Shown here: piece after piece, positions 24,358-27,440 of the stretch
Position numbering within the stretch: the stretch's first letter is position 1
Layout: each line of letters starts with the position of its first letter
Source of the DNA: Fluviispira sanaruensis
Lineage (GTDB): Bacteria > Bdellovibrionota_B > Oligoflexia > Silvanigrellales > Silvanigrellaceae
Direction of reading: 5' to 3'
Length of the DNA stretch: 64,000 nt
Assembly (NCBI RefSeq): GCF_004295685.1
Contig: NZ_AP019368.1
Location: 1,056,364-1,120,363 of the forward strand
Notes under the pieces: generated by a model
The model's input: only the letters and a program-made list of their open reading frames with translations
Told to the model about the DNA's origin: nothing
Databases searched by the model: none
Position numbers and translations under genes: made by a program

Positions 24358-24735
24358 ATGTCTAAAAATGCCAAATTGACCTTGCTTTTTTCATCACTAT
24401 TTCTTTCCAATATTGCTATTGCAGGAGGACCTAATGTAGTAAATAAATGTGATTTTAAAGGAGTTAACCACCCAGAAAACTCAAATGGCGTTATGTTTGA
24501 TGAAGAGTGTCAAAATGCCTATGTTCTTCCTCCTGAAGTCGGTAAGGTAACTGTGAGTGCTGTTCAGCAGAATTTAAATTTAGGATTTTGTTCGACAATG
24601 AAAATTGATCAAAATTCACTAAAACAGAGTACTTTAATTCGAGAAAGCATACTTTTAAAAATAAATAATATGATAAAAGAACTTGATCCATTAGATAAAG
24701 AGAAAGCAAAACTTTTTGAAATACTAGCAAATTAA
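24358..24735 (+). CDS. Secreted hypothetical protein, N-terminal segment, ending at an in-frame TAA. This is probably the 5' part of one larger gene.
   Basis: An AGGAG RBS lies 8 nt before the ATG at 24358. The product has a signal peptide (MSKNAKLTLLFSSLFLSNIAIAGG). The ORF is in the same frame as ORF 24802..26058, and the 66-nt gap between them contains no other stop. Confidence 0.45.
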   Translation: MSKNAKLTLLFSSLFLSNIAIAGGPNVVNKCDFKGVNHPENSNGVMFDEECQNAYVLPPEVGKVTVSAVQQNLNLGFCSTMKIDQNSLKQSTLIRESILLKINNMIKELDPLDKEKAKLFEILAN

Positions 24736-24801
24736 AAAATTGAAAATGAAGAGGCGTATAACAAATTTGAAGAGATAAAAATTAAAAAAACAAAACTTGG
24801 C

Positions 24802-26058
24802 ATGGAGTTAGATTCTTCTAGAAATAAGTATGAAGATTTGTTAAGAACTGAGCCAAATTCTTTAGCAACGGCCGCGGCTAAAAAATTATTAGACGCCCTC
24901 GTAGAAAATTATAGAAGATTATTAAATTATGAGTTTTATCCCGCAGAAAAAGAATTTGATAGAACATCAAGAGAAGTTAAGTTAGCTGCAGATAGATATG
25001 ATTATACATATAAAAGATTTGAGGAGTTATTAAAACCTTTGCAAAGTTTGCAAGCAGTTGCGGATAATATTGAAATGGCTGCTCAGAATTCATATCAAAA
25101 ATATGCTTTACTTAAAGGAATTTCAGCAAATCTTTTATTCAATACAGATACAAGTAATTTGGTGCAAAAGTACCAGGAAATGAATAAAAACTTAAATATT
25201 ACTTGGCAGCCTATGCTTATTAAAAACGCATTCTTTAATGCCTACTTAAAAGACCCTGGTGCTGCATTAAATTCTACATTTTCAGCTCTTATAGATGCCT
25301 TTATCCCTGGAGTGAGCTATCAGACGCTTAAAAATTTAGATCCAAAAATGCCTTTGCCATCAATAAACGAAAAGGAGAGTAAACAGGATGAGTTTTTCGG
25401 CAGTGTATCTGGAAGAGTAAAGCTCAATCTTCTAGGTGGATGTACATATTATAGCAATATTAATCAACCCGTTAAAGAAAATGATATTAATAATATTTCT
25501 GCAAATATGACTTTGAATGTTAATTATACTTATCAAGTTAAAGGGAGAAGATCTTTTTCAGCAAAATATCACTTGTCTAATTTATATACTAGAATAGAAA
25601 GTAAAACTTCATCGAGAGGATGGTTCTCGACATCATCCGCCCACTCTATTGTAGAAGATAAACAGTCTGGAGATTGGTTTGAAATTAAATTTGATGGGGA
25701 CAATGGAGAATTTCAATACACGCCAAGAGAACAAAGTGATATTACGGTAGAACAAAAGAAACTCTTAATGGATCGTGTTCTTCTGCGTGTTTCAATGCAA
25801 AATGCAGGCTCTACTCCTCCAAGTGTTATACAACCACCAATTTCTGGAATTTTATACGCTGCTGGAAGAATTGATAGATGTAATTATTATTATTGCCAAG
25901 TTGGCTCTTTCTTTATAGGCACTATTGGCTCAATTTTTGGTGGATCAAGTGCAACTTCTTATTTTAGATCTCAAGCAAATTATTGGGCTTTTGAGAAAGT
26001 AAATGGATACCTAATATTAGATCGTACAAGTAAAATCTCATTTACGAACAAATTATAA
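24802..26058 (+). CDS. Hypothetical protein, the continuation segment of the secreted protein above. No recognisable domain.
   Basis: The 418-aa ORF is AT-rich, with coiled-coil-like segments and a Gly-rich C-terminal stretch (GSFFIGTIGSIFGGSSATSYF). I recognise no homology. Confidence 0.45.
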   Translation: MELDSSRNKYEDLLRTEPNSLATAAAKKLLDALVENYRRLLNYEFYPAEKEFDRTSREVKLAADRYDYTYKRFEELLKPLQSLQAVADNIEMAAQNSYQKYALLKGISANLLFNTDTSNLVQKYQEMNKNLNITWQPMLIKNAFFNAYLKDPGAALNSTFSALIDAFIPGVSYQTLKNLDPKMPLPSINEKESKQDEFFGSVSGRVKLNLLGGCTYYSNINQPVKENDINNISANMTLNVNYTYQVKGRRSFSAKYHLSNLYTRIESKTSSRGWFSTSSAHSIVEDKQSGDWFEIKFDGDNGEFQYTPREQSDITVEQKKLLMDRVLLRVSMQNAGSTPPSVIQPPISGILYAAGRIDRCNYYYCQVGSFFIGTIGSIFGGSSATSYFRSQANYWAFEKVNGYLILDRTSKISFTNKL

Positions 26059-26109
26059 TCTGATAAAGTGCTTATAATAAAATTTAAGCACTCTTATAAG
26101 GATTGAACT

Positions 26110-26916
26110 ATGCCTATAAGAAAAGTATTGATTTTGATTTTTATCTCTGCTCAAATCGTGTCTTGTGGAGTGAAAGTTACTGCAGAAAGAAAAGGAATTC
26201 AAGATGCTCCACAAGATCCTGTGCAAAAGCCAGATCCTATTGAAAATACTTCAAAACATTATACATATTATATGAATGCAGAAAATACTAAAGAGTCTTT
26301 TTATATCTTAAAAGTCAAAACGCATAAAAATGGTGCCGATGTTAAAGTTGATTCATTTCCAAAAAGATTTAAGGGGTCCTTTTTTTTTAAAATTAATATT
26401 TTACATTTTTTCTTTGATAAAAAAGTTAATCAAAAAGACTGTGATGAAGTAAAAATAATCGCTCTTTCAAGTAAAAATCTTGTTGATAATAAAAAATTTG
26501 TGAGAGATTGGACTCCAGTTATGATCAATTTGGATTCACAGATAAATTTTCTCAAAGCAGGATTTGAAAATTCTGTAAAAAAATTTGTTGCGGATAAACT
26601 TGGAATTGATTGGACTAATGTTTCTTTCAATCATAAGTTAATACTAAAAGATATCTCTTATGATATAAAATATAATAATGAAGCAATATCTAATATTATT
26701 GATGAAATAAATGAATTCAAAGCAAGTACAGATAATTTTATTAATAATGAAATGAAATATTATGGATATACTTCTGTAGGTAATAAATTTTCAGATCTGG
26801 TCTGTGATTTATACTTAGGGAATGCTAAGCTGAGTATGAAATTTGTAGGAAGAAATAGTGAAGATGATAAAGATTTTACAGCAGAAGTAAATTTTGATTA
26901 TATTGATAAATATTAA
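26110..26916 (+). CDS. Hypothetical lipoprotein
   Basis: It has a lipobox (ISAQIVSCG) and AAGGA 7 nt upstream. At 268 aa it is AT-rich and I recognise no homology. Confidence 0.45.
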   Translation: MPIRKVLILIFISAQIVSCGVKVTAERKGIQDAPQDPVQKPDPIENTSKHYTYYMNAENTKESFYILKVKTHKNGADVKVDSFPKRFKGSFFFKINILHFFFDKKVNQKDCDEVKIIALSSKNLVDNKKFVRDWTPVMINLDSQINFLKAGFENSVKKFVADKLGIDWTNVSFNHKLILKDISYDIKYNNEAISNIIDEINEFKASTDNFINNEMKYYGYTSVGNKFSDLVCDLYLGNAKLSMKFVGRNSEDDKDFTAEVNFDYIDKY

Positions 26917-27440
26917 TGAAAGAAATTGAAATGAATTTTTTTAATAAATATACATTCGTACTAGGAGTTCTCATTGTTTTAATAATTTTATTTATGGGAA
27001 AAATTTTCTTTAGTGAAGAAAAAAAATCTGGAATAAATATTTCTCAAACAGAATTAAATAAAATAAATAGCAATAATAATAAAATTGAATCTACAAATAA
27101 AGAGAATGAAATAAATGAAAATATAGATGTTGAAGCAAAAAATAACGAATTCAAAGATTTTGTCAATATCATATTTCCTATAAGTGTCAAAGAAGTACAA
27201 CAAGAGGTTGAATTTTTAGAAAAAAAACTCAGAGATGAAAATGCAGTTGAAAGACTTAATAGCAATTCTGTTAGCACTGAGGAAAGACAAAATTATCAAC
27301 AAATTTACAAAAGATTGAGTTTACTGTCTAAATATATTATGGAAAAGGATTACGCGGACTTATCTATTAAAGTTTCTGAATATGAAAAGGAGCATAAAAA
27401 AAATCTTGAAGAATTAGGTATAAAAAGAGAAATTAATTAG
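26916..27440 (+). CDS. Hypothetical membrane-anchored coiled-coil protein
   Basis: It has an N-terminal TM/signal anchor (FVLGVLIVLIILFMGKIFF) and a Lys/Glu/Asn-rich coiled coil. Its start overlaps the previous stop (TAATG). Confidence 0.4.
   Translation: MKEIEMNFFNKYTFVLGVLIVLIILFMGKIFFSEEKKSGINISQTELNKINSNNNKIESTNKENEINENIDVEAKNNEFKDFVNIIFPISVKEVQQEVEFLEKKLRDENAVERLNSNSVSTEERQNYQQIYKRLSLLSKYIMEKDYADLSIKVSEYEKEHKKNLEELGIKREIN

What the first reader, a model, noticed from the sequence alone, without database searches (positions are those of the whole stretch)
24358..27440. Four-gene cassette of exported proteins with no recognisable homology
All four products carry export signals. The split roughly 575-aa protein has a signal peptide. 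The 268-aa protein is a lipoprotein with a clean lipobox. The 174-aa protein is a membrane-anchored coiled coil. The genes are tightly packed with overlapping stop and start (TAATG). They are far more AT-rich than the housekeeping genes and are framed by repeats A and B. The large protein ends in a Gly-zipper-like segment (GTIGSIFGGSS). I cannot place any of them in a known family from sequence. If this window holds an undescribed system, this cassette is the strongest candidate, perhaps a surface, adhesion, toxin-like or envelope system. It sits immediately downstream of a sigma-54 enhancer-binding regulator, which could control it, although I found no convincing -24/-12 element.
Basis: partly seen in the sequence, partly recalled or inferred. 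Interest (0 to 1): 0.6.

Follow-up and report, generated by a model that had tools for sequence, protein, structure and literature searches.

The report
Decaying copy of undescribed exported-protein operon
This is a broken, decaying copy of a three-gene operon for exported envelope proteins that matches no described family yet recurs in hundreds of mostly uncultured bacteria, usually behind a sigma-54 promoter.

Summary
The window is Fluviispira sanaruensis (Silvanigrellaceae). The "four-gene cassette" is three genes. BIG (24358-26058) is cut by one in-frame TAA at 24733-24735. MID (26110-26916) is a lipoprotein. SMALL (26916-27440) is a membrane-anchored helical protein.

None of the three matches Pfam, NCBIfam, PADLOC, PHROGs or PDB sequences. 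They are not orphans, though. A BIG profile finds 281 clusters at E<=1e-10. BIG, MID and usually SMALL lie together in every Silvanigrellaceae locus examined, in distant MAG loci and in Zooshikella.

AlphaFold2 (pLDDT 83) gives BIG a signal peptide, an antiparallel helical hairpin estimated at about 13 nm, and a beta-rich head with six conserved cysteines. The head carries the family's most conserved motif, the Gly-zipper helix. Fold searches matched only the coiled coil.

All eight distant loci carry sigma-54-type promoters upstream of BIG. One also has a 47%-identical relative of the window's regulator next to it. The window itself has no -24/-12 element.

The local copy is decaying. A 99%-identical strain shares the stop and has a further nonsense codon in MID. 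Substitutions between the strains look neutral.

The function is inferred, not shown. My best guess is a signal-induced envelope complex, and the main rival is a membrane-active toxin.

The parts
22000..23460 (+). Response-regulator-type sigma-54 enhancer-binding protein (EBP), 486 aa. It is a neighbour and a candidate ancestral or cognate regulator, not part of the cassette.
   Evidence: Pfam finds Response_reg, Sigma54_activat and AAA_lid_14. It is 47% identical over 345 aa to the EBP that lies divergently next to the BIG operon in distant locus L017. It is not adjacent to the cassette in L001, L002, L007 or L008.
23972..24034 (+). Left copy of an imperfect direct repeat of about 63 nt that brackets the cassette.
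   Evidence: Local alignment with 27452-27516 scores 28 against 11.0 +/- 1.3 in 300 shuffles. It is not a dispersed repeat in the window. No such repeat flanks L001, L002, L004 or L007.
24141..24357 (+). Upstream region conserved with the F. multicolorata orthologue. It is AT-rich, has GGAG at 24346-24349 and no GG-N10-GC element. A sigma-70-type promoter is inferred.
   Evidence: Nucleotide homology to L001 starts at 24141 and ends at 27439, at 79.5% identity. No sigma-54 element was found.
24358..26058 (+). BIG pseudogene, 566 codons. It encodes a signal peptide (24358-24423), an N-terminal beta segment, a long helical hairpin and a beta-rich Cys-containing head. The Gly-zipper-like helix is at 25918-25950. 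The frame is interrupted by TAA at 24733-24735.
   Evidence: Sequence and translation are. Intact homologues are 561-566 aa. AF2 of the 49%-identical homologue P0004 with a 67-sequence alignment gives pLDDT 83. The same stop is present in strain assembly L022.
24733..24735 (+). In-frame TAA nonsense codon at codon 126, where the orthologue has AAA.
   Evidence: The F. multicolorata orthologue has an independent TAA ten codons upstream. The window's stop is shared by GCA_013298585.1.
26066..26092 (+). Intercistronic 8-bp stem-loop between BIG and MID with no T-run. Its function is unknown.
   Evidence: Read from the sequence.
26110..26916 (+). MID, 268 aa, the short lipoprotein subtype. It has lipobox IVSC19 with Gly at +2 and retains the two family-invariant cysteines.
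   Evidence: It is 59% identical to L001_277 and 34% to L002_337. MID lies next to BIG in 13 distinct loci beyond the window and its near-identical strain copies. No Pfam or PDB match was found. Its GC3 of 0.157 is the lowest in the window.
26916..27440 (+). SMALL, 174 aa. It has an N-terminal membrane anchor, a variable linker and a conserved C-terminal helical domain of about 90 aa (ENAVERLNSNS...YKRLS).
   Evidence: Alignments are. Homologues occur in L001, L002, L004, L007, L014, L017, L013 and L009. No Pfam or PDB match was found.
27452..27516 (+). Right copy of the flanking direct repeat.

Best explanation
The locus is a degenerating copy of a conserved operon with no described family, here called BIG-MID-SMALL.

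Shown:
- BIG is a Sec-signal protein. Its model has a small N-terminal beta segment, an antiparallel hairpin of two helices of about 85-90 residues each, and a beta-rich head.
- The head holds six conserved cysteines, a highly conserved moderately hydrophobic Gly-zipper helix and a terminal beta hairpin.
- MID is a second exported protein, here a lipoprotein.
- SMALL has a single N-terminal anchor and a conserved helical domain.
- The three families travel together across distant bacteria. Outside Silvanigrellaceae and Zooshikella the operon sits behind a sigma-54-type promoter, once next to a relative of the window's EBP.
- In F. sanaruensis, BIG carries a nonsense codon shared by two strains. 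The other strain has a second nonsense codon in MID. Between-strain changes in the cassette are almost all non-synonymous. No -24/-12 element remains.

Inferred:
- The hairpin is about 13 nm long, from helix length at 1.5 A per residue.
- The intact system is a signal-induced cell-envelope assembly. SMALL anchors it in the inner membrane, with its domain in the periplasm.
- BIG oligomers use the coiled-coil stalk as a spacer or tube. The BIG head, together with MID (outer-membrane lipoprotein or periplasmic), acts at or in the outer membrane.
- The local copy no longer works.
For: Organism and homologues.

Gene order:
- BIG-MID-SMALL occurs in L001, L002, L004 and L007. BIG-MID occurs in L008 and L009.
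- Distant loci have BIG-MID-SMALL-MID (L012, L017), BIG-MID-lipoprotein-BIG (L019, L020) and BIG-MID-MID-BIG (L021).
- Zooshikella has SMALL/MID/BIG plus four BIG paralogues of about 870 aa (L013).
- Start and stop codons overlap in distant operons, which suggests co-translation.

Structure: AF2 gives pLDDT 83 and pTM 0.61. The cysteines and the SIFG-S-A motif are conserved.

Sigma-54:
- Six of the nine matches at >=10/11 in 260 kb of distant loci lie directly upstream of BIG on the right strand.
- Two further loci match 8 of 11 with correct GG/GC spacing.
- An orthologue-like EBP lies next to the operon in L017.
- Francke et al. 2011 (PMC3162934, title and abstract listed; the paper was not read here) argue that sigma-54 regulons centre on the cell exterior.

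Decay:
- Independent TAA codons occur in two species, and an A8 frameshift in a MAG.
- Paralogues P0002 (486 aa) and P0013 (316 aa) are annotated as truncated.
- L022 shares the stop and adds MID K176*.
- Between the two strains the cassette has 1 synonymous and 9 non-synonymous changes. The flanking genes have 11 and 3 (Fisher p = 0.0028).
- Purifying selection operated until recently: dN/dS for BIG is 0.14 against L001.
Against: - No experiment or homology assigns a function.
- Localisation rests on signal, lipobox, hydrophobicity and cysteine patterns read from the sequence, not on a dedicated predictor.
- The fold searches were dominated by the coiled coil, so a known fold for the head is not excluded. 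AFDB could not be searched.
- The model is of a 49%-identical paralogue, not the window protein.
- Frequent inactivation, several paralogues per genome, patchy distribution and differing genomic contexts fit an accessory toxin or effector at least as well as an envelope machine.
- SMALL is missing next to BIG in L008, and MID is missing in L014.
- An adjacent EBP was seen in only 2 independent contexts (the window with its strain copy, and L017) out of roughly 19 distinct loci.
- The taxonomy of most distant loci is unknown.
Confidence: 0.55

Rival explanations
1. The intact module is a secreted, membrane-active (pore-forming) toxin or effector system. BIG, alone or as two paralogues, inserts its hydrophobic Gly-zipper helix or labile loops into a target membrane. 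MID is a helper or second component. SMALL is an immunity or retention factor. The local copy has been lost because it is dispensable.
For: - Operons with two BIG and one or two MID paralogues resemble binary or tripartite toxin loci; this comparison rests on general knowledge.
- Zooshikella has an array of four BIG paralogues of about 870 aa.
- Inactivation is frequent and neighbours differ between related species.
- The most hydrophobic mature segment is usually the Gly-zipper helix, with a 19-residue Kyte-Doolittle mean up to 1.85.
- Host lineages include predators and pathogens (titles and abstracts listed).
Against: - All structural matches come from the coiled coil alone, with TM-scores <=0.24 or high rmsd.
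- There is no sequence match to any toxin family.
- No secretion-system genes were seen in the operons examined.
- The C-terminus is the most conserved part, unlike polymorphic toxins.
- The median hydrophobicity of the helix, 1.29, is below that of a typical transmembrane segment.
Confidence: 0.3
2. BIG is a periplasmic adaptor-like (HlyD/EmrA-type) or Skp/EnvC-like coiled-coil factor that serves a nearby transporter, such as the convergent MFS gene, or a cell-wall enzyme.
For: - The model has a beta segment, a long alpha-hairpin and further beta structure. By general knowledge this order recalls membrane-fusion proteins and Skp.
- An MFS transporter gene lies convergent to the cassette in the window and in L002.
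Against: - No HlyD, Biotin_lipoyl, LytM, NlpC/P60 or OmpH domain was found, even at E<=1, in 67 members.
- The MFS neighbour is on the opposite strand and absent in L001, L007, L008, L012 and L017.
- No TolC-like or FtsEX genes are present in the operons.
- BIG has a cleavable signal peptide and six cysteines, unlike anchored adaptors (general knowledge).
Confidence: 0.08
3. The in-frame stop is functional, through programmed read-through or a deliberate two-product split, so the local cassette is active.
For: - Two species carry in-frame TAA codons only ten codons apart.
- dN/dS stays low on both sides of the stop, at 0.13 and 0.14.
- The stop is stable across two strains.
Against: - The stops sit at different codons, each a single AAA-to-TAA change in a Lys/Glu-rich stretch that is prone to nonsense mutations.
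- TAA is used as an ordinary stop by BIG and MID in this cassette.
- The downstream fragment lacks a signal peptide.
- The sister strain has a further nonsense codon in MID, and the substitution pattern is neutral.
- Intact homologues have no stop at this position.
Confidence: 0.04
4. The cassette is simply a recently acquired mobile or foreign island with no relation to the neighbouring regulator. The adjacency to the EBP is coincidence.
For: - A direct repeat of about 63 nt flanks the cassette.
- Homology to F. multicolorata covers only 24141-27439 and the flanks are unrelated.
- MID and SMALL have low GC3.
- MITE-like repeats lie upstream.
Against: - No integrase or transposase is present.
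- The family is absent from viral contigs and plasmids.
- A 47%-identical EBP lies next to a distant family member that has a perfect sigma-54 promoter, which makes chance adjacency unlikely.
Confidence: 0.03

Closest known systems
Periplasmic adaptor / membrane-fusion proteins (HlyD, EmrA)
   Different: BIG has no lipoyl, beta-barrel or MP domain by sequence. No partner transporter or TolC-like gene lies in the operon. BIG has a cleaved signal peptide and a cysteine-rich head with a Gly-zipper helix. The structural matches cover only the hairpin.
Coiled-coil cell-wall hydrolase regulators (EnvC, RipA/RipC, PcsB)
   Different: BIG has no LytM, NlpC/P60 or CHAP domain. FtsEX is not adjacent. 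The BIG hairpin is inserted between two parts of the head rather than lying at the N-terminus.
Sigma-54-dependent envelope stress modules (PspF-pspABC; ZraSR-zraP)
   Same: An EBP gene sits next to an operon with a sigma-54 promoter that encodes a coiled-coil protein plus small single-pass membrane proteins or periplasmic proteins. The comparison itself rests on general knowledge.
   Different: PspA is cytoplasmic and has no signal peptide. ZraP belongs to the small CpxP/Spy family. No sequence similarity was found. The window's EBP scores higher to the NtrC and AtoC models than to ZraR or PspF.
Colicins and alpha-helical pore-forming toxins or translocators (colicin E9, AhlC, IpaB, Tc toxin TcA)
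   Different: The similarity is in the coiled coil only. BIG has a Sec signal and a beta-rich head. It has no toxin domain and is not plasmid-borne.
Skp / prefoldin 'jellyfish' chaperones
   Different: BIG is about four times larger, its hairpin is about twice as long, and it has no OmpH domain.

Membership tests
Any curated protein family (Pfam-A, NCBIfam, PADLOC, PHROGs) | A significant profile match for BIG, MID or SMALL. | tested here: not met
   The window proteins gave only sub-threshold noise. Sixty-seven BIG members gave only coiled-coil noise. Twenty head-only sequences gave nothing below E 0.03. Ten SMALL members gave nothing.
Membrane-fusion / periplasmic adaptor proteins (HlyD family) | Lipoyl, beta-barrel (HlyD_D23/HlyD_3) and MP domains, plus an operon partner transporter and outer-membrane factor. 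| tested here: not met
   No such Pfam hits at E<=1. No co-oriented transporter or TolC-like gene was found in the loci examined. Only the hairpin aligns structurally.
EnvC/RipA/PcsB-type hydrolase regulators | A C-terminal LytM, NlpC/P60 or CHAP domain, and a link to FtsEX. | tested here: not met
   No such domains were found. No FtsEX gene is in the neighbourhoods listed.
ClyA/Hbl/Nhe/Ahl-type or colicin-type pore-forming toxins | Sequence or fold match of the whole protein, including the hydrophobic head or pore-forming domain. | tested here: inconclusive
   There is no sequence match. Structural hits cover only the coiled coil.
Sigma-54 regulon member (this locus) | A GG-N10-GC (-24/-12) promoter upstream of the first gene. 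| tested here: not met
   The 450 nt upstream of BIG contain no GG-N10-GC. The only candidates in 23461-24357 score 5-6 of 11.
Sigma-54 regulon member (family level) | A conserved -24/-12 promoter upstream of the operon, and a cognate EBP. | tested here: met
   L015 and L017 match 11 of 11. L012, L016, L020 and L021 match 10 of 11. L014 and L019 match 8 of 11. All lie 32-195 nt upstream of BIG. A response-regulator EBP is adjacent in L017 and is 47% identical to the window's. Actual dependence on sigma-54 was not tested experimentally.
Bacterial lipoprotein (MID, this copy) | A signal peptide ending in a lipobox [LVI][ASTVI][GAS]C. | tested here: met
   The window has IVSC19 and L001 has TVSC. 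Most family members have a plain signal peptide, while the short MID subtype in L012 and L017 also has a lipobox. Acylation was not tested.
Phage, plasmid or integron-borne cassette | Presence on viral contigs or plasmids, or an adjacent integrase or attC site. | tested here: not met
   There were no relatives in IMG/VR with two profiles and none in PLSDB. No recombinase ORF lies in 20-31 kb of the window.

The most novel reading that the evidence does not exclude
BIG-MID-SMALL, with extra BIG and MID paralogues and small lipoproteins in some lineages, is a previously undescribed multi-component system of diderm bacteria controlled by sigma-54 and an EBP. It would be either a periplasm-spanning envelope machine or a new class of membrane-attack complex. 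It is common in uncultured Bdellovibrionota-like organisms. Its head domain, MID and SMALL would represent new folds or families.
Probability: 0.45. Interest if true: 0.7.

Novelty: categorically new. Interest (0 to 1): 0.5.

Why it matters
Three co-inherited protein families have no annotation at all. They are represented by hundreds of sequence clusters and are wired to a recognisable regulatory signal, a sigma-54 promoter with a response-regulator EBP. That makes them a concrete, testable entry into unannotated envelope biology of Bdellovibrionota and related uncultured bacteria. This group includes predators, a Daphnia pathogen and emerging human opportunists. If the module is an envelope machine or a membrane-attack system, it would add a new component class to diderm cell-surface biology. 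It would also extend the proposed link between sigma-54 and the cell exterior.

The label 'categorically new' is by exclusion: every membership test failed, but no function was demonstrated. The F. sanaruensis copy itself matters little functionally, because it is a pseudogenised remnant. It is useful mainly as a natural 'knock-out' and as evidence that the three genes decay together.

Tried and rejected
- Pfam and NCBIfam on all window proteins found nothing for the cassette. PADLOC and PHROGs also found nothing.
- The word-indexed homologue search found only 8 BIG and 3 MID relatives. With the 67-sequence profile it was swamped by coiled-coil proteins. The exhaustive profile search was needed.
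- AF2 with 8 sequences failed outside the hairpin, at pLDDT 46. A 67-sequence alignment gave pLDDT 83.
- PDB sequence searches found nothing real with the full-length, head-only, MID and SMALL profiles.
- A profile-profile comparison showed the BIG head and MID are unrelated.
- DNA of the second F. sanaruensis paralogue (P0002/P0011) could not be retrieved.
- Alignments A2 and A4 were too diverse for the locus scan.
- Rfam and tRNA scans of the window were empty.
- A literature search by accession numbers found nothing.
- Accessory ORFs in distant operons have no Pfam hits.
- The Zooshikella N-terminal extensions gave only a sub-threshold FG-GAP hint.
- Rejected: an MFS-linked adaptor role, because the neighbour is convergent and not conserved.
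- Rejected: an integron or phage cassette, because there is no recombinase and no viral or plasmid homologue.
- Rejected: programmed read-through, because the stops sit at different codons and there is further decay in the sister strain.

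
Full report
**What is in the sequence.** The 418-aa ORF at 24802-26058 is 100% identical to a Fluviispira sanaruensis protein on a 3.52-Mb contig. The window is therefore from this Silvanigrellaceae bacterium.

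The region 24358-27440 holds three genes, not four:
- BIG is one 566-codon frame starting at ATG 24358, with GGAG 8 nt upstream. A single TAA at 24733-24735 (codon 126) interrupts it.
- MID is 26110-26916.
- SMALL is 26916-27440.

BIG begins with a Sec-type signal peptide, MSKNAKLTLLFSSLFLSNIAIA|GGP. MID has the lipobox IVSC19. SMALL has an N-terminal hydrophobic anchor followed by a helical domain. The MID stop and SMALL start overlap as TAATG. BIG and MID are 51 nt apart, with an 8-bp stem-loop at 26066-26092.

MID and SMALL are the most AT-rich coding sequences in the window. Their GC3 values are 0.157 and 0.166, against 0.256 +/- 0.044 for the 41 long ORFs. BIG, at 0.215-0.222, is ordinary.

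An imperfect direct repeat of about 63 nt brackets the cassette at 23972-24034 and 27452-27516. Its alignment score is 28, against 11.0 +/- 1.3 in shuffles. It is not a dispersed repeat in the window.

**No described family, but a large undescribed one.** Pfam, NCBIfam, PADLOC and PHROGs give nothing for the three proteins.

The word-indexed search found only eight BIG relatives, all from Fluviispira, Pigmentibacter or metagenomes. The intact ones are 561-566 aa.

An exhaustive profile search over 1.84 billion cluster representatives found far more. It returned 372 clusters at E<=1e-3, 281 at E<=1e-10 and 96 at E<=1e-30.

Named members come from these organisms, and every one is annotated 'hypothetical':
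- Silvanigrella aquatica
- Pigmentibacter ruber and another Pigmentibacter species
- a Bacteriovoracales MAG
- Zooshikella ganghwensis, Z. harenae and another Zooshikella species

Sixty-seven diverse members have no Pfam domain beyond coiled-coil noise. PDB sequence searches found nothing real with the full-length, head-only, MID and SMALL profiles.

**Structure.** AlphaFold2 with eight sequences resolved only the hairpin. With 67 sequences it gave pLDDT 83 and pTM 0.61 for P0004, the intact F. multicolorata paralogue, which is 49% identical to the window protein.

The model contains, in order:
- a signal peptide
- beta strands at 45-71
- two helices at 73-164 and 169-250, forming an antiparallel hairpin; I estimate its length at about 13 nm from 1.5 A per residue
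- a beta-rich head at 253-447
- helices at 456-527, including the Gly-zipper-like helix at 511-527
- a terminal beta hairpin at 543-563

Six cysteines (31, 51, 78, 362, 508, 513) are conserved in the family and retained in the window copy. This fits an oxidising compartment.

**Gene neighbourhood.** Local HMMs built from the loci show that the three families travel together:

| Locus | Gene order |
|---|---|
| L001 (F. multicolorata) | BIG-MID-SMALL |
| L002 (F. multicolorata) | BIG-MID-SMALL |
| L004 (Oligoflexia MAG) | BIG-MID-SMALL |
| L007 (Pigmentibacter) | BIG-MID-SMALL |
| L008, L009 | BIG-MID |
| L012, L017 | BIG-MID-SMALL-MID, plus one more ORF |
| L019, L020 | BIG-MID-small lipoprotein-BIG, plus one more ORF |
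| L021 | BIG-MID-MID-BIG, plus three ORFs |
| L013 (Zooshikella) | SMALL/MID/BIG, plus four BIG paralogues of about 870 aa |
| L014 | BIG-SMALL |
| L018 | BIG-MID |

Accessory ORFs in these operons also lack Pfam hits.

MID has two invariant cysteines and a D-L-x-C-D-L motif. It comes in a long form of about 330 aa with a plain signal peptide and a short lipoprotein form. The window has the short form. The BIG head and MID are unrelated.

The family is absent from viral contigs and plasmids.

**Regulation.** In the window, 23461-24357 has no convincing -24/-12 element. The only GG-N10-GC candidates score 5-6 of 11.

Homology to the F. multicolorata orthologue covers exactly 24141-27439 at 79.5% nucleotide identity. 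It includes an AT-rich upstream region and the ribosome-binding site. The flanks are unrelated: rpsL-rpsG lies upstream there, and the EBP lies upstream here. None of the Silvanigrellaceae loci, nor Zooshikella, has a sigma-54 promoter.

All eight other distant loci do, 32-195 nt upstream of the first BIG gene on the correct strand:
- L017 has TGGCACACGCATTGCA and L015 has TGGCACTTCGATTGCA, both 11 of 11.
- L012, L016, L020 and L021 match 10 of 11.
- L014 and L019 match 8 of 11.

Only nine matches at >=10/11 exist in 260 kb of those loci counting both strands, and six are at this position.

L017 also has a divergent response-regulator EBP directly upstream. It is 47% identical to the window's EBP over 345 residues, including the receiver and linker regions. 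No other fetched locus has such an EBP.

I conclude that the family is ancestrally a sigma-54 operon and that the window's EBP is plausibly its cognate or ancestral regulator. The local copy has lost, or never had, the promoter. Francke et al. 2011 (PMC3162934, title and abstract listed; I did not read the paper) proposed that sigma-54 regulons centre on the cell exterior, which fits an envelope role.

**Decay of the local copy.**
- The F. multicolorata orthologue carries an independent in-frame TAA ten codons upstream of the window's. Both are single AAA-to-TAA changes.
- A MAG copy is frameshifted at an A8 tract.
- The second F. sanaruensis paralogue (P0002, 486 aa) and a second Pigmentibacter copy (P0013, 316 aa) are annotated as truncated.
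- A second assembly (GCA_013298585.1, L022) is 99.2% identical and has the same FeoAB-EBP-cassette-MFS synteny. It shares the TAA at codon 126 and has an extra nonsense codon in MID, K176*.
- Between the two strains the cassette has 1 synonymous and 9 non-synonymous differences. The flanking genes feoB, MFS and ABC have 11 and 3 (Fisher p = 0.0028).
- Against F. multicolorata, dN/dS is 0.14 for BIG, 0.53 for MID and 0.46 for SMALL. An intact pair (L004 against L007) gives 0.11, 0.10 and 0.26.

BIG was therefore constrained until recently, and the whole cassette now drifts. I infer from this that MID and SMALL depend functionally on BIG.

**Interpretation.** Shown:
- It is a real, conserved module of exported proteins with no described family.
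- It is linked to sigma-54 at the family level.
- It is pseudogenised here.

Inferred, at about 0.4 within the overall 0.55: the module is a signal-induced envelope assembly. SMALL would be the inner-membrane anchor, BIG a coiled-coil stalk with a membrane-proximal head, and MID an outer-membrane lipoprotein or periplasmic partner.

The main rival, at 0.3, is a secreted membrane-active toxin or effector with helper and immunity components. It explains the paralogue arrays, the patchy distribution and the frequent loss at least as well.

Adaptor-like, read-through and pure mobile-island readings are minor (see the rivals section).

**Novelty and score.** Every membership test against known families failed, so by exclusion I rate the module categorically new. 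That rests on absence of evidence: the head fold was not searched on its own and no function was shown.

Interest is 0.5. The module is a good, testable lead into unannotated envelope biology with a clear regulatory handle. It is not a surprise that overturns anything, and the copy in this window is a dead one.

Noticed in passing
window 23442-23676, 23528-23594, 23929-23958: The 897-bp EBP-BIG intergenic region holds a MITE-like element. Its 24-nt terminal inverted repeats are GCATAAATCATCAGTTTGATTTTT / AAAATGAACACTGATGATTTATGC. They surround a perfect 25-bp-stem hairpin at 23528-23594. An inverted copy of the hairpin's inner 30 nt lies at 23929-23958.
   Followed up: partly
window 23445-23465, 23486-23506, 23651-23669, 23709-23727: A motif of about 20 nt built around CATCAGT/ACTGATG occurs four times, two forward and two reverse, just downstream of the EBP gene. 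These could be regulator (EBP) binding sites or repeat debris.
   Followed up: no
L022:8001-8807 (GCA_013298585.1): A 99.2%-identical strain assembly carries an additional nonsense codon in MID (K176*). It also has a 3-nt indel in the EBP gene relative to the window.
   Followed up: partly
L013:12122-21914 (Zooshikella ganghwensis): A tandem array of four BIG paralogues of about 870 aa lies on the opposite strand. Each has an N-terminal extension of about 390 aa. UniRef names a Z. harenae relative 'VCBS repeat-containing', and Pfam gives only a sub-threshold FG-GAP hit.
   Followed up: partly
L009:4640-4760 and L010: BIG in a MAG labelled 'uncultured Neisseria sp.' is frameshifted at an A8 homopolymer. 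This could be a slippage-prone site or an assembly error. The taxonomic label is doubtful given the Silvanigrellaceae-like cassette.
   Followed up: no
L016:5219-5953 (-): A 244-aa ORF with a Pretoxin-HINT domain (E 1e-6) lies divergently next to a BIG gene that has a sigma-54 promoter, in a metagenomic contig.
   Followed up: no
L002:4294-7560 and L009:2187-3803: An SBP_bac_5 solute-binding protein gene lies upstream of BIG in two loci. In L002 it is followed by a histidine kinase (HATPase_c). This may be a sensory input.
   Followed up: no
window 19715-21906: FeoB is followed by a small Cys-rich ORF. In L022 the equivalent genes are annotated FeoA, FeoB and FeoB_associated. This iron-uptake operon lies directly upstream of the EBP.
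   Followed up: no
window 28780-29460 (-): A 226-aa ORF has low GC3 (0.19) and no Pfam or NCBIfam match. The strain assembly L022 calls only 166 aa at this position.
   Followed up: no
window 3404-3417: A 14-nt exact match to the core of the flanking direct repeat occurs about 20 kb away; it includes the 10-mer TTTTACCGAG at 3408. It may be chance or a short recurrent intergenic motif.
   Followed up: no
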